Positions 487 through 59,086 of a stretch of 64,000 bases of DNA are shown piece after piece. The number at the start of each line of letters is the position of its first letter. Within the stretch, counting starts at the first letter, position 1. The translations under genes were made by a program, and so were the position numbers. The notes under the pieces were generated by a model. The model worked only from the letters and a program-made list of their open reading frames with translations, was not told the origin of the DNA and searched no databases. Source of the DNA: Chiloscyllium plagiosum (taxonomy: Eukaryota); assembly GCF_004010195.1 (NCBI RefSeq), contig NC_057714.1, positions 7,866,492 to 7,930,491 on the forward strand, in the 5' to 3' direction.

Positions 487-569
487 GCTGATGTGTGATT
501 TAGGTAGTTTCATGTTGTTGGGGCTCAAGTCTATCTCTACAACACGAAACTGCCTGAATTACTGCAGTT
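487..569 (+). ncRNA. mir196: pre-miR-196 hairpin (HoxA-linked locus, position of mammalian miR-196b)
   Basis: The mature 5p sequence TAGGTAGTTTCATGTTGTTGGG lies at 501-522. The complementary 3p arm CTACAACACGAAACTGCCTGAA lies at ~537-558. The flanks pair, and the position upstream of Hox9 is canonical. Confidence 0.97.
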
Positions 570-6087: not shown

Positions 6088-6212
6088 TGATTTATACTTT
6101 ATTGTTGTATTTTGAATCACGTGAGGAGCCTATCCAATGGTGAGGAAGTGCGTCTGCACCATATTAGCAGACTGTACTTGTCGCGGCGGTAAGTTGTTAC
6201 ATTGAAATCTGC
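6088..6212 (+). promoter_or_regulatory. HoxA9 proximal promoter / conserved 5' region
   Basis: PBX-HOX site TGATTTAT at 6088-6095, E-box CACGTG at 6118-6123 and CCAAT at 6134-6138. AGTTGTTACATTGAAATCTGC (6192-6212) resembles the start of mammalian HOXA9 mRNA. Confidence 0.8.
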
Positions 6213-6254: not shown

Positions 6255-6795
6255 ATGTCGACATCAGGGACTATCAGCAATTATTATGTCGACTCCCTTA
6301 TCATGCATGAGAACGAGGAGCTGCTGTCGTCCAGATATGCCTCGGGTCCACTGGCTCAGTCTTCCAGACAGACAGCTCTTGCTGAGCACCCCGACTTCTC
6401 CCCATGTAACTTCCAGTCCAAAGCCACTGTGTTCAGCACCTCCTGGAGCCCAGTTCATGCGCAGAGCTCTGCCAGCATGCCCACTGTTTATCACCCGTAC
6501 ATGCACCAGGCGCCCATTGCCGCCGCGCCCGATGGTAGGTACATGCGCTCCTGGCTAGAGCCCATGCCGGGAACCCTGTCTTTCACTGGGTTACCTTCCA
6601 GCAGACACTACGGCATCAAGCCCGAGCCTGTAGCGGCTCGCAGGAGTGACTGCACCACGTTTGAAACACACACGTTAGCCCTCTCAGATTATACTTGTGG
6701 ACCTTCTCCTGTCGACAAACGTGTGAGCGAGGTTTCCTTCACTGAAAATAATGGAGAGATTGAGTCAAACGCAGATAAGCTCCATATGGATCCAA
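6255..6795 (+). CDS. HOXA9: Homeobox protein Hox-A9, exon 1
   Basis: ATG at 6255 gives MSTSGTISNYYVDSL...DGRYMRSWLEP...HYGIKPEP (Hox9 activation domain). Donor CCAA|GTAAGT at 6796, phase 1. Confidence 0.97.
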
Positions 6796-7459
6796 GTAAG
6801 TGTGGAAACATTACGTTTTTGTATTGCTTTTCTAGATAAAGACTCGAAATGCAAACTGTTATATATTCCTACATTGTACAGCGAAATAACAAAATCTCTT
6901 TGCAGTTTTATGGGATGGGTTTTTAAAAATTACGTACCTCAAAATAGTTATCAAAAAATTGGTTAAGCTTTAGCGATGTACATTTCGGTAGTGACATGAA
7001 CACAATTTGGATCTAAACTCAACTATTTTCCATTCATTGTAGAAGACAGAAGGGGAGACATTGAGCGTAATTGACTCTAATTCAGGTGTATTTGTTGCAA
7101 AAAAAAGCTGATGAGGATAAAGCTGCTGGACAAACCTCTACAACATCTAATTGAAGCACAATTGGCAACATATTAGATTATTTATGTCTAATTTACAGGG
7201 CCGTCACAATATTATATCTTTCTAACTTATTTTGGGCTCTGTTCATAGAGTTTTTCATTGAGCAAGGGGATTAGCATTAAGAGTTGAAATGTCAGTGAAA
7301 ACATCTGGAAGTGTAGCAGCCAACCTCATTCATCCAGTACAGTCTCAGTTTTTTTTTTATTTGTTTATCTCAACCGGTGTTTGATTCTGAGAATGTCGCA
7401 ACATTTTGACTGGCATGTAAAAGGAAAATATATTAAATGTGTTTCCTTCACACTCCCAG

Positions 7460-7701
7460 ATAACCCTTCCGCCAACTGGCTGCATGCAAGATCTACAAGA
7501 AAGAAACGTTGCCCCTACACCAAGCATCAGACCTTGGAGCTGGAGAAGGAATTCTTGTTTAACATGTACCTCACACGAGACCGCAGATATGAAGTCGCAA
7601 GGGTCCTTAACCTCACCGAACGGCAAGTTAAAATCTGGTTTCAGAACAGGAGGATGAAGATGAAAAAAATCAACAAGGAACGACCGAAAGACGACCGGTG
7701 A
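7460..7701 (+). CDS. HOXA9: Homeobox protein Hox-A9, exon 2 (homeodomain); spliced protein 260 aa
   Basis: Acceptor CCCAG at 7455-7459. Encodes [47 protein letters not shown]...[17 protein letters not shown] at 7699-7701. Confidence 0.98.
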
Positions 7702-7947
7702 CACGAATTAGAATATTTCTGTGTGCGAGAGAGAGAGAAAAAAGACTAAATCACAATTACAATCGAGTTAGGCCCTGCTTCAGAAAGACTACGTGTACAT
7801 TTTGTCATCCCATTAGCACAATTTATTCCTTTGCCCGTTCTGGACTGCATTTGGTGGGTAAAAGACTGATACACTTGTTAGTTGGGAACCAAAGAGGGAG
7901 ACATTTACGGCAAGGTTAAGTATGTGGCTACGGAATCTACCTTACTT

Positions 7948-8574
7948 CACATGAAAACTACCTTTTCTTAATCCACCACTATTCAGTGTGGACAGTAATT
8001 CAGTAATACTGTACTCGTTTAATATTTACTTGTTTTACATGCAGCAAACGAGGCTGCTTATATACTTGAATCCTTGTGTCTGTTGTCGTGATTATCCCTG
8101 TGACTGGGCCTTTGTGCTTGGGCGGTGTCCGAGTAAAGATCGTGTAAACAAAAAGAAAGAAAAATCTCAATTTAACTCAGGATGTTTAATATAAAGAGAA
8201 CAGGCTGTGTAGTGCATATGAAATGTTATTTTCGTGGTGAACTTGGAACATACATTGTATTATTTTCACTGTGAATGAACCTGTAGAAACTCCAGGCTTT
8301 CGCTGTCTTTGTGAGACTGAGTAACGGCCTTGCCCGGGGTGCATGACGATTGTGTTGTTCTTCAGAAATTATATGAAACTGATTTGCATAGAATGCTAAT
8401 ATAAGTTGTATTTCAAAGAGCAGCGCTGAGCATAATGCTACACGATACTCTTGTCTGTTGTGAGAAAAGCACGAATAAAGTTCTCAGACACTTTGTATTT
8501 ATCGGTGTTGTGGTGCAAAGAAAAGTGTAAGATTTGGTTTAAAACTACCTATATGTATAACTAGTAACTACCTA
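7948..8574 (+). promoter_or_regulatory. miR-196 target sites in HoxA9 3' UTR
   Basis: ACTACCT at 7957-7963 (extended match CACATGAAAACTACCT). 8mers ACTACCTA at 8544-8551 and 8567-8574. Confidence 0.75.
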
Positions 8575-9949
8575 TGTTTTGTGTGTAAGTGTCGCCCTTA
8601 AAATTGTTTTGACACATTTATGCGATGGAATAAATAAACAAGCAACATTGTCAATAAATGTAATGTGTACAAGTAAAATGCCTGGGTGCAATAGAAGGAA
8701 CATATACCACCAATGTGTTTTAAATGGGGAGGGGGTTGTCTTTAAACCTGTAGAGCAACACATTTACACTTGTGTACACGTTTGAAATGATTACCTCGTG
8801 TCATATTGACCAAACTATACTGTTTGTAATGAAATGTCATTTTATTTGTTGTCTAATAAAATATATGTTTGACTACATATAAAATATGGTCTCTCTTTCT
8901 GAAGCTCAATATATGCAAACATCTCGCATGGAACTCCTCAACTATATATTTTTAAAATTTCACCAGCACTGCAGGATCCCCAAAGCTCCCCATTCGGAGC
9001 AGAAAAATTTTAAAATGTGCACATTTCCTTCTACCGTTATTTTAAATAGGTGAATCAAAATTTAAACTGTCAGGCGAACAAGTTAATTAAAATATGTCAT
9101 GGCAATAAAAATAATCCAATCCCCTTACTAATATTAAAAACAGTGTCCGTAATATCACCCAATTGCACTGTTTGCAAACATTAATGATGTACTTCATATT
9201 CAATCTTTGGATTTTACCACAAACTATGACATTGAAAACGTGACTTAAAGTTTGGCTTCTCCTTAGTAAATACTGCAACGAAATGTTATCACCACTGTTG
9301 ACATAACATGACTTAAGAGGGGTAACTAACTTTGGCATAAGATTGGAATTTATGGAAAAGGGAAGAAAATACTAAGTGTGATCTAACAACTTTGGCTTGG
9401 AAGCGGATATCATGACAAAGATGCAGAATGCGATTGAGTTTAACGCCCGGTTATCACCAATTAACCCGAGAACGTACAAACCTGTGGATTAACAACTTTT
9501 ATTTGTCGCCTGGCCATGCGCCAAGGCCTCTGGTTATTTATATGATTTGTTGTGTGCTACTTATCCGAGAAATGCAGCACTTCTGCTGCAAGTGGAAATG
9601 AATAATCTTGAGTTGTTTGCCCGTGTGAAGAGGTTCAAAATTGTTGGGATTTTATCGGATTAAAACGAGGCAAATAATTCTAGAAAGTCGCACTGGTTCA
9701 AATCCCTGCCGCCATTTCTTTAACTGATCAACCAAGAAGTGTCGAATTCCTCAGAAGAAAAGTATACTAGTCTAAAGCGAATGTTGGGTAGCGCTTGGCT
9801 TTTTTTGTAACTTCCCTTCCAACTGCAAGATCCCTAGTAACTTTTTTTTTAAGACTCCGACGACAGTTTGGATAGATTTAGTGGGATTCAAATGATTTGG
9901 AAACTGAGCAGAGAGGCCTAAGTAGTTAGAAGTCTTGGCAGTGGCTGTT

Positions 9950-10330
9950 GTTAGTAAAATCCAGAGTGGTGTACCGCAATAAAAGCAAATGACTGCTGTA
10001 AGCGTTTATGGGGTGTAAAACGCTGGAGGTTAAGGGGCGAAGTGCATAAACACGACACTGACGATCTTTATTTGGAGTATTCTTCAGTATTTAGCGGCAA
10101 ACACTCGGATAGCATTGCAATCTTTGTTTTATTATTATTATTTCATTAGACAACGGCGAAATTGATTTTTTAAATTTTATTTTCAAACAAGTCCTCAGTC
10201 TGAGGGGTTATAATGTTGTGACGCCCTCTGTTGTTGCATCTGGAACTTCAAAGACTACACAAGGAGACTTGCAATAAAATGAAGGGTCTGGCAAGCCGTC
10301 TGGAATTCGGGTTTAATGAGTTTACAACTG
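9950..10330. promoter_or_regulatory. Cdx/posterior-Hox site cluster between HoxA9 and the HoxA8 relic (candidate enhancer)
   Basis: GTAAAA, GCAATAAAA (x2), TTTATGG, TGTAAAAC and TTTAATGAGTTTACAAC are clustered. They resemble Cdx-dependent Hox8/Hox7 early enhancers. Motif-level evidence only. Confidence 0.45.
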
Positions 10331-10667
10331 TCCAGCTACAATCAGTATTTTTCCAGAGAAGGCAATCCATTTGTTTTGTCTGGCTGCCTAGACAAAAGGG
10401 TCTGCGGAAATAACGACCTTTATTAGTCTCGTCTTTAACACGGGCCCCTCAAATATCGTTTTACTAATTTATTGCGTCTAGTGGGGAAAAAATAACAGGT
10501 CTTTTAGTTATTTTGAAGCGTGGTTTAACCCTATTTACAATTTAACGTGATAGATATAAGAACGAATATTGTGGAAAAACGGTGTAGGTATTGGCTTCTT
10601 TGCAGTTTAAAAAGGGTTTGTGTGCATTCTCAGCCTGCAATTTCACAGTTGCACTTTTACGTATTTA

Positions 10668-10682
10668 CCAGGAGATGGCAGT
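10668..10682 (+). promoter_or_regulatory. candidate CTCF site (HoxA7|9 boundary)
   Basis: CCAGGAGATGGCAGT has one mismatch to CCASYAGRKGGCRS. It sits in the interval where mammals have the A7|9 CTCF boundary. Confidence 0.55.
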
Positions 10683-11816
10683 GGTAATCCACAGAAGAAT
10701 TTAAAAACGGTGCGGCCAAGCTGCCAAAAAACGTACTTACTGCGATAAACTGGGATTTATTTATACAGAGGGTTGTAAATAGGATGAAAACATCTACCAC
10801 AAATGACACTTGTAAAAATGGACTGAGGTCGATGGAGTATATTCATTTTGAATCCATCAACTTATTTGTGGACAGATTAATTCCACTTGACACAGGGTTT
10901 AGAAATCCATTTGTACCTCAGTGTTTTATTTTTAATGCACAATAACATGATTTAAATTGATCAACTTCCAATTTGTTCCTTAGTCTACTCCGCTGTGTGC
11001 AACAGGGGATAGCAACTGGAAGTTAGGAGTAGCTCAAACTGAAATGACGTAAATTATTATACATCAATCATACTTAAAAGAGCATATGTTTATATATATA
11101 TATATAAAACCAGTAAAACGGACACTCATGCACATCCATTAACACGCATGTATGTGCACACATATTCAGGTACACATGTATATTATACATAAACACAAAT
11201 GAACCTACTCTTGTTTTCGCTGAAATTCTCCCAGTCAGAATCGGTTGTTAAATGTTGCATAGACCTGAGGTACAAATGCAAAATACATAATTACCTTTTA
11301 GTATATTTATGACTTGGCTTCAAATTGTAGTCATGTATAAAATTATATCTATCATCTCAGTGTTTTGAATTTTAATGGCATGTTGTAAAATGCTCGTTGG
11401 ATGCAAAGTACTGACTGGTAACTTTTACAATTTTCATAAAATGATTAATACTTTGATCAAGTGTTATAATGGTAAGAAATTAAGTCAGTTCGGAGGATAC
11501 TTTTTTTCTCATCCAGATGCCCAAGTTATATTTTCACCTTGAGTGAAACTGCAGCATATCTGCTGACTGTGCCCATTTTCGAGTGAAAGGATTTTGTACA
11601 ATCGTGCACATATTGGGAAGGATTGAATGAAAGAGCCGGTCGGATTTGTTAGTATTGCTTCAGAGAGGTTGGTTTATTTAAAGAACACCACTGAAGTTTC
11701 TACATTCATCAGAAAGTTAAAAAATGAAACTTAATGATTTGACGCTTTGGAAACTGAAACAGGTGGCTTCCTCACTTCCATAAAGTGAGTATATTAGTGT
11801 TAAAAACTCTTCCATC

Positions 11817-13790
11817 ATTGACACCCTTAACGATCACGTGAATAATAACAATAAATACCGTGGTAAGTGATAAAACTAATGACGCTCGGATTAATTAATC
11901 TTGTCAAGAAAACTTCAGTGCAATGTATTCAATTTTATTTTCAATATCGACATACATTTATAAAGCCTGGATACTTATTGGCACAGCGCAAAACCAAGCC
12001 AGAATTCAGACAGCAGCTAACAAGCTTCTACTTCCGTTAATATGCTGCATAGAAGGAATGGGGGGTACTATTATAGCCATATAATACGTTGGAAACAACA
12101 ACAAATGACGTGTAACGAAATCCGAGATCTATGTATTCCAAAACATACTGTCGGGAAAGTCTGCGTTATCAGTCGATGACAAATTCAAATAAATGCTTAG
12201 TGATCACTTTGCCATTTTGTCGATTGATACGCAGGATTCCCAGCTACAAATCAGGATAATCTGTTACTATGCAACATAATCATTAATGTTTCACATGTGC
12301 CTGTAGGCAGAGCAAAATAAAATTATAACAAGCTGTTCCAACTACTAAGAGAAAAAAAAAATAGACAACTTTACTAGACATAGAGCTGTGTCCGGAAATA
12401 TAGAAGACATTGGACTTTCAGAAATTTAGAAATGTACCATTGTCACTTAAATGTTGAGCAAAACATAACGCGTGGGACAACGTTGAATATTTGTCTGTCT
12501 GTGAAATTAAGAAGTGATATGAGTATACTCCAGATGGGTTTTTTTTCTTTCAGTCTCCAGGCTAAAAGAACAGAACCAGTTTGAAATTCTTCGATTCATA
12601 AACATATCATGGGTTACTGACCAACCATTTAGGTCAATTGATTTTGTTTCAAAAATACACGATAACCTTTGAAGTCATGGCTATAATAATTTGCTAATTC
12701 GTTTGAAAAATCCGTGGAGTTTTCTTTGTCTCTATACTTCCTCCGGCTCAAGCTGGTAATAGAATGTGATGGTGAATACGTCTCCAGATCCCGGATAATT
12801 AAGGTAAAAAAAACTATTTCAGATTGCTGCTCAATAAAGCTTCTACGTTATTGCCGTAGTGGAGAAATCTTATTTAATGGAATATTAGAATGCACAACAA
12901 ATTATGGTGTTCATTAAGATGTTGGGGTATGCATTTTAGTGATAAACATTGGGCCGTGTATTTGCAATGCTCGATGGCCGTCAGTGCGTGGAATCTTTAG
13001 GTCATGAGAAACGGCGAAATAAACAGCAATTTTTTTAAAAAAACTCTTTTCGCAGACATTTATTTCATATTATTAAATAATAATATTTCAGATGTGTGCT
13101 CGAGCAACAAACATTGTCCTTACTTTAACAGCGTTCATTTGTTATGTTTGGACTACAAACTCACAAGTGAAAATGTTGACTTTACTGGCAAACGGTCTAG
13201 CTATAGTGTACTTTCCTAAAGTGTCCTCTTTTCCTGATTTGTACTTCCCCGATTATTATTGGTGATTTATTTCCTTGCAGTTGAAGTGCAATCCGGAACG
13301 ATATTTTTTTTTAACCGAGAAATCTTTTGACCTGGAATATACATTTTTAAAAAGTTCTCCCATATTTCTGATAACTGACTGTATATTTTTTTTCTTATTC
13401 TGGACTTAGAAGGTAATAATAGCAATCGCCGCTGATTGCAGTGATGGACATTTTATTTATAAACTCTCACCATGTTTGTGTCTGGTAAAAATCGGCTTCA
13501 GACATATTTTAATAGAGGAAAGATCCGAATTCACACCGCAATCTAGAGCGCTTCCCGAAACATCTATCGTCCTTTCGTTGTAGGTATGCACAGGAGACAT
13601 GGAAGCATACAGATCGTGCAGTCTTTTTCCAGTAAGTATAGTTCTTTTAACGAGCGAGGAGCGAAGGTAGTGCAATAACTTCCTGATAAGCGTTTCTGCT
13701 GGTGTGAAGCCTGTCTGTTCAGCACAGAGATTGGGACATGCCAGAGGAGACTCCAGAGATCAAAAGAAAACAACATTTCCGAATAGCAGA
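11817..13790 (+). pseudogene. Highly decayed HoxA8 pseudogene
   Basis: Collinear relics, in order: ATTGA..TCACGTG (11817-11840); ACA-AGC-TTC-TAC-TTC-c-GTT-AAT-ATG-CTG ~ MSSYFVN.L (12020-12047); acceptor CCTTTCGTTGTAG (to 13583); homeobox fragments (13592-13733); AAA GAA AAC AAC a TTT CCG AAT AGC AGA = KENN..FPNSR (13763-13790), similar to the Hox8 tail KENNKDKFP.S. Confidence 0.75.
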
Positions 13791-14530
13791 GCAAACAGTT
13801 CCTAAAATATCCCAGACGGAAAGGCAGAAACATGTTTTTATTGTAATAATCCTTTACTATTAACACACCAGGTGCATACTTCCTAGACTGTCTAGCTGCT
13901 GTAAATGCTGGCTGTGCTTTCCTACGCCTAACCCTGACAAAATATGCCTATTAATGTGGAACATAAAAGCAACTGATCCGCTCGAGAGGAACGAAAACCC
14001 TAGACACAGTAACTGGTCAATATGCCCGGACATTGTGGACAACAGCTTCGGAGACAAGTTCTGTGATCTAACGAGAGGATTGGGAAAGAGCGAGCGAGAG
14101 AGAGAGAGAGAAAAAAGTTGTAAAACAGAAGGCGGAAACGATACCCGGGGTAAATCCCCTGTGGGGTTCCAATCAGATTACCTAGCAACTCTAAAAGGTT
14201 TCCGCGGAATAGTTGTTTCACTGAAACCCGCCAGAGGAAATGTGGTCACCCCCAAAGTGAACTCGTGCATTTTAATAAATCAATAGATGACCATGCTTGA
14301 ATGTTAAAACAAAAATCCGAGCGTTCGCATCAGAGGTAGCAATACAGCCATCTTGCGCTTTGATCCTGCAGCATATATCTTGTACCTATAACTCTCACTA
14401 TTTGCCTATAATTGATTTGTTTTATAATTTCGAGTTTAGATGTACATCCAATCTAAATTCAGCAAGTCTCCAGTGTCTCTGAAACTGTACAGTGCCTTGA
14501 TGGCATCGTTAGACAGCAAACAACTACACG

Positions 14531-14588
14531 GGGTTGGGGAGGGGGCGGGGGGGGGGGGGGGGGGGGGGGTAGCAAGGGATGTTGGGGG
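14531..14588 (+). repeat. poly-G / G-rich tract (G-quadruplex potential) upstream of HoxA7
   Basis: An uninterrupted run of more than 20 G plus flanking G-runs. Confidence 0.85.
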
Positions 14589-14992
14589 TAAAGAATAAAG
14601 AGAGAAATGCAACTGCTCACTTATTTTCAATTCTTCCACGTAACCTTTTCTTTTAAACCAAACATTACAGAATGTTCCTAAATGTTACACCAGTGCGACT
14701 ATACTAGTCATGATTTCTGCTTCTTTTAAAATGTAACCAAATCGTATGGGTCTCTTTGCACTTCCAGATTCATCACACATCTTATTCTCAACAATGTTGG
14801 AATCATACCTGCGTTCCTAAACATGTAAATGGCACAGTGGCTTGGGAAAGAAATTAACAGAAGACATTGACCTTTTAAGGTGACACAGTCTATCGACACT
14901 TCCAATATTAAAAGATTGTGTGCGATTTTTGTACAATATCTTTTTGAAAATAGTCGAATACATGCTATTTACCACCTGTGATGTGGAATGCT

Positions 14993-15156
14993 ATTGGGTG
15001 ACGGGATCACATGGCCAGGTCACGTGAATAGAAATAAGTCGGGCCGAAGGAAAATGGGTGCTTGGTGTAAATCGGGGGTGTAATGCTACCATTTATCACG
15101 CTATCTCGTAAAACCGACACTGAAGAGTCCTGGCCAACAAATCACCAGACAAAATT
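14993..15156 (+). promoter_or_regulatory. HoxA7 promoter / 5' UTR
   Basis: ATTGG at 14993-14997, CACATG at 15008-15013 and CACGTG at 15021-15026. Followed by TCGTAAAACCGACAC and CAAATCAC...AAATTATG, typical of Hox7 leaders. Confidence 0.8.
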
Positions 15157-15550
15157 ATGAGTTCGTCGTATTATGTGAATGCTCTTTTTCCCAAATATAC
15201 GGCGGGGACATCCGTTTTCCAGAACGCGAGTGGCTTTACAGAAGCAACTTCTTGCGCTTTTGCTACCAACTCACAAAGATCCAGCTATGGAGCGGGCGCC
15301 AGCGCCTTCCCAGCCCCGATGGCCGGCCTGTACAATGTTAACAGTGCAATCTATCACGGCCCTTCCATGTACAACACAGGTTATAACTTAAATTCCGATT
15401 CCTACAACCTGCGCTGCTCTGCCTTAGACCAGAACATTCCAGTTCTTTGCAGCGATCTGAGCAAACAGGGTTGCGAAAAATTGGATCAGACAAACGTGCA
15501 CCCTCAAGCAGAGAGCAATTTCCGGATTTACCCCTGGATGAGGAATGCAG
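15157..15550 (+). CDS. HOXA7: Homeobox protein Hox-A7, exon 1
   Basis: MSSSYYVNALFPKYTAG...FRIYPWMRNA. Donor CAG|GTATGG at 15551. Confidence 0.97.
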
Positions 15551-15635
15551 GTATGGGACATAGTGTAACATAGCGATGAGAAAACGTGCAAATGACCAGT
15601 TAAAATGAGCGCCACTACATCCTGAAGGTAGTTAA

Positions 15636-15745
15636 GAGTTTTAATGGTAGCTGAGGACCAGTTCCTCAAACGTATGTGGTATTGTAGGCAGATAGCAATC
15701 ATAAAACTTTTATTGCACAATTAATCAGTACAATCCTCGTAAAAG
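15636..15745. promoter_or_regulatory. HB1-type homeodomain-binding element in HoxA7 intron
   Basis: TTTTAATGG, CATAAAACTTTTATTGC, CAATTAAT and TCGTAAAA are clustered in the 5' part of the intron. Confidence 0.6.
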
Positions 15746-16476
15746 CACTCGACTTCCGCTCCTTTAAAGTTAACAGCAACTCACATATTGCTTGTTTACC
15801 CACTTTTATCAACATCAAATGAGAGCTATGTTCTTTACTGATACACGGGAAAAAAACACCGTTTATTCTTGAGAGGATGGGGATTGATACATTGCAGGTC
15901 TAAAGTTTGTTTACAGATTGGGCAAGGTCGTGGAACTGAAGCGTTTTCTCTCTTTGTTTTTCACTCCGTAAAAGATCTTTGGGTCCTTGTAAAACTTCCC
16001 CCGCCCCCTTTGTAGATACAAGTCCGTATTTGAAACGCATTACTTCGGTGCTATAACATACAAGCTCGAACCACCAGAGTAAAATTAGGCATTTCAATTG
16101 CTAGCATTAGAATCGAATAGATCTGGAACAAAACACACACACACATGCACATACAGCCTTACAATTTTAGTTACCTGTCATTCCTGTGTCTGAAATATTA
16201 ATATTCCAACCCTATATACTGGGTGAAATTTTATTCCGTCAGCCGCTTGGATGTAAATAAACTATTAAGAACACAAGTGATTTGCACTGGAAACTTATTT
16301 TTCTTTTCAAAAACCGTTTTGCTAGAAGAAGGTTCCTCTCAGATCCCAAAAGTTAATTTGCATTTTAACTCAGACCCTTGGCATCTGAGTAGTTGGTTCA
16401 GCCACAGATATTTCAATGGGGTTCTGTAAGAGCAGAGATGACGAGGGGATGTTGAAAGCAACAGGAATGGAGTTGA

Positions 16477-16797
<321 letters not shown>

Positions 16798-58970: not shown

Positions 58971-59086
58971 GTCTACCCGAAGAGGCCATTGGAAGAAGAG
59001 AGTCACGTGACACAGGGTGCCAATGTTATTCTATAAGGGTGTCAAGACCCTGTCAGTTTGCGAAATAAATATTGGGAAACAACGAG
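58971..59086 (+). promoter_or_regulatory. HoxA3 5' UTR portion with splice acceptor and proximal promoter module
   Basis: Acceptor TTTCTTGTAACCCCAG (AG at 58969-58970), ATTGG at 58988-58992 and GTCACGTGAC at 59002-59011. Confidence 0.75.

What the first reader, a model, noticed from the sequence alone, without database searches (positions are those of the whole stretch)
11817..12047. Relic HoxA8 promoter and first codons
Seen: ACAAGCTTCTACTTCCGTTAATATGCTG (12020-12047) aligns to ATG AGC TCC TAC TTC GTT AAT CCG CTG (MSSYFVNPL) with a dead start codon and a 1-nt insertion. About 180 nt upstream is an intact TCACGTG (11834-11840) preceded by ATTGA (11817-11821), a degenerate copy of the module found before every live Hox gene here. 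Inference: the whole two-exon architecture of HoxA8 (~1.9 kb) survives, and the intact E-box and acceptor may still drive or serve a non-coding transcript.
Basis: partly seen in the sequence, partly recalled or inferred. Interest (0 to 1): 0.72.

Follow-up and report, generated by a model that had tools for sequence, protein, structure and literature searches.

The report
Faint HoxA8 stump under antisense RNA
Between HoxA9 and HoxA7 of a shark- or ray-type genome lies what is probably the worn promoter and first 15 codons of the long-lost HoxA8 gene (the rest of the gene cannot be found), and in a close relative this spot is covered by a spliced RNA read from the opposite strand.

Summary
The nine-codon match alone is chance-level (44 of 200 shuffles). 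It extends to 15 codons, fits only paralogue group 8, and lies 186 nt behind a CCAAT/E-box-like module otherwise found at live Hox promoters. Module plus match was reached by 0 of 1000 shuffles (test framed after seeing the site, strength depends on the profile). A 5' stump of HoxA8 is therefore likely (about 0.6). The claim that the whole two-exon gene survives is not supported: the rest of exon 1 scores at background and the homeobox at 13584 scores no better than other nearby starts, where a gene decayed like the first codons would be obvious. Contigs of two probable RNA runs of a related species cover 11766 to beyond 14050, with three joints that are GT-AG only on the minus strand and none into 13584. 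So the transcript seen is antisense, coming from the HoxA7 side, in the same interval as human HOTSCRAMBL; homology is untested.

The parts
11817..11840 (+). Degenerate CCAAT/E-box promoter module (ATTGA, 12 nt, TCACGTG); the CCAAT core is broken, the E-box is intact
   Evidence: 7 matches of ATTGR-N8-14-TCASVTG, 0.82 expected; the other 6 lie at live promoters; pattern set after seeing the site; relaxed module: 13 sites, 4 of them at neither a live promoter nor here
11841..12019 (+). Spacer, the inferred former start region and 5' leader; no alignment to any live promoter beyond chance
   Evidence: 60 to 279 of 300 shuffles reach the scores; position inferred
12020..12065 (+). Probable decayed first 15 codons of HoxA8: dead start codon, one inserted base after codon 5
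12066..12500 (+). Place where the rest of Hox8 exon 1 should lie: no trace, no strong donor
13582..13790 (+).
11766..12300 (-). Last exon of a spliced antisense RNA (left end is the end of contig coverage, not a mapped 3' end); overlies the stump
   Evidence: runs X19, X20 of a related species; acceptor at 12301-12302 canonical in the window
12301..13164 (-). Intron of the antisense RNA, 864 nt, GT-AG on the minus strand; also seen retained
   Evidence: table 5 (X20, 1 contig, depth 7.9; absent from DNA run X15, which spans the stretch in one piece)
13165..13331 (-). Middle (skippable) exon of the antisense RNA, 167 nt
   Evidence: tables 5, 7, 8
13332..14808 (-).
   Evidence: table 7 (loose ends at 13334 in X19 and X20, at 12303 in X20, matching window 14812-14837 with one different letter)
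14809..14837 (-). Upstream exon of the antisense RNA, just left of the HoxA7 promoter; its far end is unknown (a possible acceptor at 14841-14842 would make it a 32-nt inner exon)
   Evidence: far end is prediction only
11673..11678 (-). Candidate polyadenylation signal (AATAAA on the minus strand) for the antisense RNA
   Evidence: use not shown
6255..7701 (+). HoxA9 coding region (left neighbour; 3' UTR to about 8880)
15157..16797 (+). HoxA7 coding region (right neighbour), promoter module at 14993-15026

Best explanation
11817-12065 is the 5' stump of HoxA8: promoter module, leader and about 15 decayed codons, on the right strand in the right slot. The body of the gene (rest of exon 1, homeobox) was deleted, replaced or decayed past recognition. 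The stump most likely no longer works as a sense promoter: its CCAAT core is broken while the E-box is intact, so I expect a USF-type bHLH site acting, if at all, as a cis element for the neighbours. The region is now crossed by a low-level, alternatively spliced, non-coding antisense RNA that comes from the HoxA7 side (either divergent from the HoxA7 promoter or the extended end of a HOXA-AS3-like transcript) and ends just past the module, probably acting in cis like other Hox antisense RNAs. Shown: the motifs, the statistics, the absence of a detectable body, the minus-strand joints in a relative. Inferred: descent from HoxA8, factor binding, the start, end and role of the RNA, its expression in the window's own species.
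For: Slot and strand. 15-codon group-8 profile: best site in the non-coding part of the window, both strands, at two of three decay settings. Joint with module 0 of 1000; with any E-box 1 of 400. Given the module, the match is in the top 0 to 26 of about 840 real non-coding windows for 9, 12 and 15 codons, six profiles, two lower decay settings. Column-permuted decoys do as well in 0, 0 and 2 of 150. Profiles of A3, A4, A5, A6, A7, A9 do not fit (399-400 of 400 shuffles). Body absent. Antisense RNA: three joints, all GT-AG on the minus strand, two studies, absent from a DNA run, all four splice sites canonical in the window; longest ATG-started frame in the two joined forms tested 48 codons.
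Against: The sequence match alone depends on the profile: 10-22 of 400 shuffles with HoxC8-containing bony-vertebrate rows, but 95-232 of 400 with B8, D8, B8+D8 or the four cartilaginous-fish rows, where a look-alike ending at 13645 scores higher. It fades by 20 codons (105-200 of 200). A relaxed module alone occurs in 252-287 of 1000 shuffles. Six of 37 other 15-codon Hox8 pieces also reach the 5% tail behind the module (none the 1% tail). The only real Hox8 gene in hand (teleost-type hoxc8a, L001) shows no such module in 338 nt upstream, and its first 60 coding bases do not find the site (57 of 60 shuffles). Spacing to the start (185) is longer than at live genes (83-163). A gene whose first codons survive while the body vanishes needs an extra event. 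RNA evidence is from a related species; the one own-species RNA run laid was uninformative.
Confidence: 0.55

Rival explanations
1. No HoxA8 relic at all: the E-box is one of the many in the cluster (an ordinary enhancer site or chance), the codon match is a chance look-alike, and the antisense RNA is unrelated to any lost gene.
For: TCACGTG occurs at 13 distinct places in the window, 9 not before a live start. Nine-codon match 44 of 200 shuffles; a second look-alike at 13645 outscores it with four of six group-8 profiles. No body found. Tests were post hoc.
Against: Joint occurrence 0 of 1000, decoys 0-2 of 150, group-8 specificity, correct slot and strand.
Confidence: 0.33
2. One reading: the whole two-exon gene lies in place (exon 1 from 12020, exon 2 from 13584), decayed nearly to saturation, with the 5' end better kept by constraint or luck.
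For: The AG at 13582-13583 ranks 3 of 549 plus-strand AGs on a crude score. Summed over alignments, a homeobox starting there is in the top 3.6-5.7% of background windows, and 12-23% of heavily decayed simulated genes score no higher. Overall span resembles a real Hox8 gene (about 2.1 kb in L001).
Against: Other starts in 12100-14800 score higher; 58-60 of 60 shuffles reach the best-path score. The rest of exon 1 sits at the background median and 0 of 40 simulated genes score as low up to decay 0.7, 1 of 40 at 0.8. No strong donor at 12400-12520.
Confidence: 0.08
3. The stump is still a working sense promoter giving an unspliced plus-strand RNA, alongside the antisense one.
For: Contig coverage begins at 11766 and 11809, close to the module, after a gap of 1.7 kb holding only repeat-type hits; unspliced coverage (depth 8-16) has no strand information. 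E-box intact.
Against: Coverage includes the module itself, which would lie upstream of a sense start; every joint is minus-strand; none enters 13584; the CCAAT core is broken; a minus-strand AATAAA lies at 11673.
Confidence: 0.12

Closest known systems
Hox pseudogene remnants in slowly evolving vertebrates: HoxA14 and HoxB14 pseudogenes of Callorhinchus milii (PMC3707753, passages; PMC3509897, passages), caecilian psi-HoxD12 (PMC4470032, passages), bichir psi-HoxA7 (PMC1845163, passages)
   Same: Leftover of a lost Hox gene in its original cluster slot.
   Different: Here only about 250 bp at the 5' end is detectable, no homeobox, and support is statistical rather than an obvious alignment; the loss would be older (HoxA8 is missing in all jawed vertebrates: recalled).
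NF-Y/USF composite promoter module (PMC7046753, passages: CCAAT downstream of the E-box at 17-18 bp; it cites the HOXB4 promoter work of Zhu 2003, title only)
   Same: Same two elements in the same order and orientation at A7, A6, A4, A3 and, degenerate, at 11817-11840.
   Different: CCAAT core has one mismatch and the gap is 12 nt against 9-11 at live genes; I did not convert the paper's distance measure; no binding data.
HOTSCRAMBL, human antisense lncRNA between HOXA7 and HOXA9 (bioRxiv 10.1101/2025.07.16.664824; abstract, sections 5 and 12, passages)
   Same: Same interval, same (antisense) strand, non-coding, low level.
   Different: The preprint reports low similarity outside mammals and no orthologues in other species; sequence homology, exon structure and function could not be compared here.
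HOXA-AS3 / HOXB-AS3 (PMC8330917, passages) and HOXD-AS2 (PMC8293171, passages)
   Same: Spliced antisense RNAs in the middle of Hox clusters; HOXD-AS2 crosses the group-8 position.
   Different: HOXA-AS3 is described as ending in the HOXA7 intron or before; the exons seen here lie beyond HoxA7, towards HoxA9. Whether they are its extension is untested.

Membership tests
HoxA8 pseudogene | Position between HoxA9 and HoxA7, same strand | tested here: met
HoxA8 pseudogene | N-terminal codons similar to group 8 beyond chance | tested here: inconclusive
   Alone 10-232 of 400 shuffles by profile; with the module 0 of 1000; decoys 0-2 of 150; post hoc
HoxA8 pseudogene | Closer to group 8 than to neighbouring groups | tested here: met
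   A3-A7 and A9 profiles 399-400 of 400 (five of these six profiles rest on a single sequence)
HoxA8 pseudogene | Rest of exon 1 with hexapeptide and donor | tested here: not met
HoxA8 pseudogene | Homeobox relic (exon 2) | tested here: not met
   heavy decay (0.7 or more) cannot be excluded
HoxA8 pseudogene | Promoter homologous to HoxB8/C8/D8 promoters | tested here: inconclusive
   one teleost-type hoxc8a locus only, no module in 338 nt upstream
HoxA8 pseudogene | Orthologous remnant in distant cartilaginous fishes | not testable with these tools
   no vertebrate genome collection; only close relatives
NF-Y/USF promoter module | Intact E-box CACGTG | tested here: met
NF-Y/USF promoter module | Intact CCAAT pentamer at the set spacing | tested here: not met
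   ATTGA, gap 12
NF-Y/USF promoter module | Binding and a transcription start downstream | not testable with these tools
   contigs cannot show starts; raw run X21 gave 2 reads
Hox antisense lncRNA | Spliced transcript on the strand opposite to the Hox genes | tested here: met
   in a related species; strand inferred from splice motifs
Hox antisense lncRNA | No long open reading frame | tested here: met
   longest ATG frame 48 codons in two joined forms; true ends unknown
Hox antisense lncRNA | Regulation of neighbouring Hox genes | not testable with these tools
   needs perturbation
HOTSCRAMBL orthologue | Same interval and strand | tested here: met
HOTSCRAMBL orthologue | Sequence or splice-site homology | not testable with these tools

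The most novel reading that the evidence does not exclude
The promoter and first codons of HoxA8, lost before jawed vertebrates split, were kept under selection as a regulatory element, and the antisense RNA whose last exon covers them is the cartilaginous-fish orthologue of HOTSCRAMBL. A lost Hox gene's slot would then have carried a cis-acting RNA since the base of jawed vertebrates.
Probability: 0.12. Interest if true: 0.82.

Novelty: new member of a known kind. Interest (0 to 1): 0.5.

Why it matters
If real, this is physical evidence that HoxA8 existed after the cluster duplications and shows how it went: body gone, promoter end left. It gives a testable case of a dead Hox promoter kept inside a cluster. 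Independently of the relic, a spliced antisense RNA in the HoxA7-HoxA9 gap of a cartilaginous fish is the positional counterpart of human HOTSCRAMBL, for which the preprint names no orthologue, and gives exact splice sites to test.

Tried and rejected
Whole-genome search: no genome held, so no HoxB8/HoxD8 DNA of this species. Pfam on 6 read-through frames: 0 families, control homeodomain found. nhmmer from the six live homeoboxes: no hit at 13584 down to E 100. tblastn with 13 Hox8 proteins: only chance-level pieces in the part of the output shown. Nucleotide-level back-translated profiles: neither site among the top eight non-coding hits of any of five models; one look-alike ending 13640 was. 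Pairwise promoter alignments: nothing significant, also not among live promoters, so that test has no power. Real hoxc8a DNA against the interval: 5-57 of 60 shuffles reach the scores. PDB search gave no group-8 homeodomain among the 60 shown. Sequencing runs: no RNA holder listed on record; 4 of 24 runs were laid; own-species raw run X21 (about 2 in 100 read) gave 2 poor reads and none on the HoxA9 3' UTR control, so it says nothing. Conservation: in the relative, 10 changed letters in 484 over 11809-12300 against 34 in 918 over 12274-13193, P 0.11: not significant; the variant table was cut (40 shown, 138 not), with no row shown inside 11817-11869 or, as a substitution, 12020-12065; one G of the run at 12060 is absent in both relatives. 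Rfam: only miR-196 at 492-565. Earlier findings: three look-ups, nothing. Literature: ten searches found no report of a HoxA8 remnant; Kim 2000 and Hara 2018 are not held. I have a vague, unverified recollection that early horn shark HoxA papers drew a group-8 pseudogene; this could lower the novelty. Supplements were not read; those of the preprint (its Figure S1 on conservation) are closed and bear on the HOTSCRAMBL comparison.

Full report
Setting. The window holds six intact Hox genes on the plus strand: A9 (ATG 6255), A7 (15157), A6 (24800), A5 (27715), A4 (40664), A3 (59087), with miR-196 at 492-565. The A7 first exon retrieves proteins named Hox-A7. First-exon sizes of A6 and A4 are close to those tabulated for skate and horn shark (PMC2746220, parts 1-2 of 4 read), so I infer an elasmobranch HoxA cluster. 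The finding lies in the 7.4-kb gap between A9 and A7, where HoxA8 would sit; that no jawed vertebrate keeps HoxA8 is recalled knowledge.

Observation. All three strings are at the stated coordinates. For comparison I obtained named group-8 proteins and aligned 13 of the 120 listed: five B8, four D8, four C8, four of them from cartilaginous fishes. Standard searches see nothing: Pfam 0 families in 6 frames, nhmmer no hit at 13584, tblastn chance-level pieces only. I therefore built codon-aware profiles that allow decay and frameshifts.

First codons. The match runs on to codon 15 (12065), where 3, 3 and 12 of 200 shuffles reach it and the site is the best in the window's non-coding DNA, both strands, at the two lower settings; 12 codons give 23-96, 16 give 10-51, 20 give 105-200, 30 give 122-200 of 200. 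A larger run gave 32 of 1000 for 15 codons. The strength depends on the rows used: 10-22 of 400 with C8 or all 13 rows, 95-232 of 400 with B8, D8, B8+D8 or the four cartilaginous-fish rows, where a look-alike ending at 13645 scores higher. Profiles of the six live paralogues do not fit (399-400 of 400). Sequence alone is thus suggestive, not sufficient.

Promoter module. Live promoters carry ATTGG, 9-11 nt, then an E-box: A7, A6, A4, A3 in this orientation, A9 exactly only in the flipped orientation, A5 only with a mismatch and flipped. The pattern ATTGR-N8-14-TCASVTG, which I set after seeing the site, has 7 matches against 0.82 expected; 11817-11840 is the only one not at a live promoter. 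Allowing any one mismatch gives 13 sites, 4 of them elsewhere, and 252-287 of 1000 shuffles hold one, so the degenerate module alone is weak. The design matches the NF-Y/USF module described genome-wide (PMC7046753, passages). The relic's CCAAT core is broken, its E-box intact.

Both together. No shuffle in 1000 had a 15-codon match this good 70-200 nt behind a module, at either setting; the same for nine codons; 1 of 400 behind any E-box. Among about 840 real non-coding windows of the same width, 0 to 26 do as well for 9-15 codons across six profiles at decay 0.3 and 0.45, 0 to 134 at 0.6. Column-permuted profiles do as well in 0, 0 and 2 of 150 trials; of 37 other 15-codon pieces of Hox8 none reaches the 1% tail and six reach the 5% tail. 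These tests were framed after the site was known. One real Hox8 gene, a teleost-type hoxc8a from a metagenome contig (1 of 131 pattern matches), shows no module in 338 nt upstream. I put a true 5' stump at about 0.6.

Rest of the gene. Exon 1 as a whole and exon 2 at 13584 are reached by 54-60 of 60 shuffles, while the four best live homeoboxes score 98-192 bits on the same local model. With a profile that leaves out C8, decayed copies of the real hoxc8a gene were always found at decay up to 0.45 (exon 2 minimum 22 bits, observed best 17.6 and not at 13584) and became invisible in about half of cases only at 0.7, where a 15-codon score of 12 is rare (0-12%) (40 copies per setting). Summing over alignments, codons 16 onward sit at the background median and 0 of 40 simulated genes score as low up to decay 0.7; a homeobox at 13584 is in the top 3.6-5.7% of windows but is beaten by other starts nearby. 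The AG there is a good acceptor by a crude score (rank 3 of 549), but no strong donor lies at 12400-12520. The two-exon claim fails unless the body is almost saturated.

Transcription. Twenty-four runs were listed, none on record as RNA holders; I laid four on 7750-14050. The own-species raw RNA run was uninformative (2 poor reads, none on the HoxA9 3' UTR). Two runs of a related species from two studies, guessed to be RNA, cover the HoxA9 3' UTR at depth 227-349, leave 10071-11758 empty apart from a repeat-type hit, and cover 11766 or 11809 to the end of the stretch at depth mostly 8-16. One contig skips 864 nt with ends CT..AC; loose ends at 12303 (X20) and 13334 (X19, X20) match window 14812-14837 with one different letter. 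Read on the minus strand these are GT-AG introns 13164 to 12301, 14808 to 13332 and 14808 to 12301, and all four sites are canonical in the window itself. A DNA run of another relative spans the stretch in one piece without the skip. Sides of the joints are short (25-29 letters), as expected of contigs cut at branch points; contigs give no strand, start or end. No joint enters 13584. The last exon overlies the stump; a minus-strand AATAAA lies at 11673; the longest ATG frame in two joined forms is 48 codons.

How it most likely works. HoxA8 was inactivated early; its body was deleted, replaced or saturated; about 250 bp at the 5' end remained. With CCAAT broken it is probably no longer a sense promoter; the E-box may serve as a USF-type site for the neighbours. 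A spliced antisense RNA from the HoxA7 side now ends over it and probably acts in cis. Binding, constraint and function are inferred; the conservation test available was not significant (P 0.11).

Known relatives and novelty. Hox remnants are known in slowly evolving vertebrates (PMC3707753, PMC3509897, PMC4470032, PMC1845163; passages). Ten searches found no HoxA8 remnant, PMC2746220 has no mention of a pseudogene, but the key horn shark paper is not held and I have an unverified memory that it may show one. Human HOTSCRAMBL is an antisense lncRNA in the same gap, with no orthologue named (bioRxiv 10.1101/2025.07.16.664824; abstract, sections 5 and 12, passages). HOXA-AS3 is described as ending in the HOXA7 intron (PMC8330917, passages); HOXD-AS2 crosses the group-8 slot (PMC8293171, passages). 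I do not file the stretch as a full pseudogene, since two defining features failed, nor the RNA as a HOTSCRAMBL orthologue, since homology was not testable.

Verdict. Observation partly confirmed; interpretation partly supported. Probable 5' stump of HoxA8, no detectable body, overlain by an antisense spliced RNA. New member of known kinds; interest 0.5.

Noticed in passing
window 11766-14837, minus strand: Spliced antisense RNA with three joints in a related species; same interval and strand as human HOTSCRAMBL. Worth a finding of its own.
   Followed up: partly
window 16175-16423 and 14809-14840, minus strand: Strong minus-strand acceptor (16425) and donor (16174) inside the HoxA7 intron, and an acceptor at 14841-14842, predict further antisense exons that could link the RNA to a HOXA-AS3-like transcript. 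Prediction only.
   Followed up: no
window 9482-9971: Low-depth contigs (5.6-8.8) in both probable RNA runs, separate from the HoxA9 3' UTR and from the antisense exons; strand unknown.
   Followed up: no
window 492-565: miR-196 precursor, plus strand, in its usual place upstream of HoxA9.
   Followed up: no
window 6101-6138 and 58988-59024: HoxA9 and HoxA3 promoters have a CCAAT box downstream of the palindromic E-box (A3 on both sides), a layout that could drive both directions.
   Followed up: no
window 11834-11844 and 15020-15030: The relic and the HoxA7 promoter share the 11-mer TCACGTGAATA.
   Followed up: no
window 30640, 45702, 49094, 51679: Further E-boxes away from coding starts, with no Hox8-like codons behind them; possibly promoters of upstream or antisense exons.
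   Followed up: partly
window 8630-8860: HoxA9 3' UTR contigs end at 8645 and 8854, next to AATAAA signals; the UTR differs from the relative by only 7 letters in 1105.
   Followed up: no
   Followed up: partly
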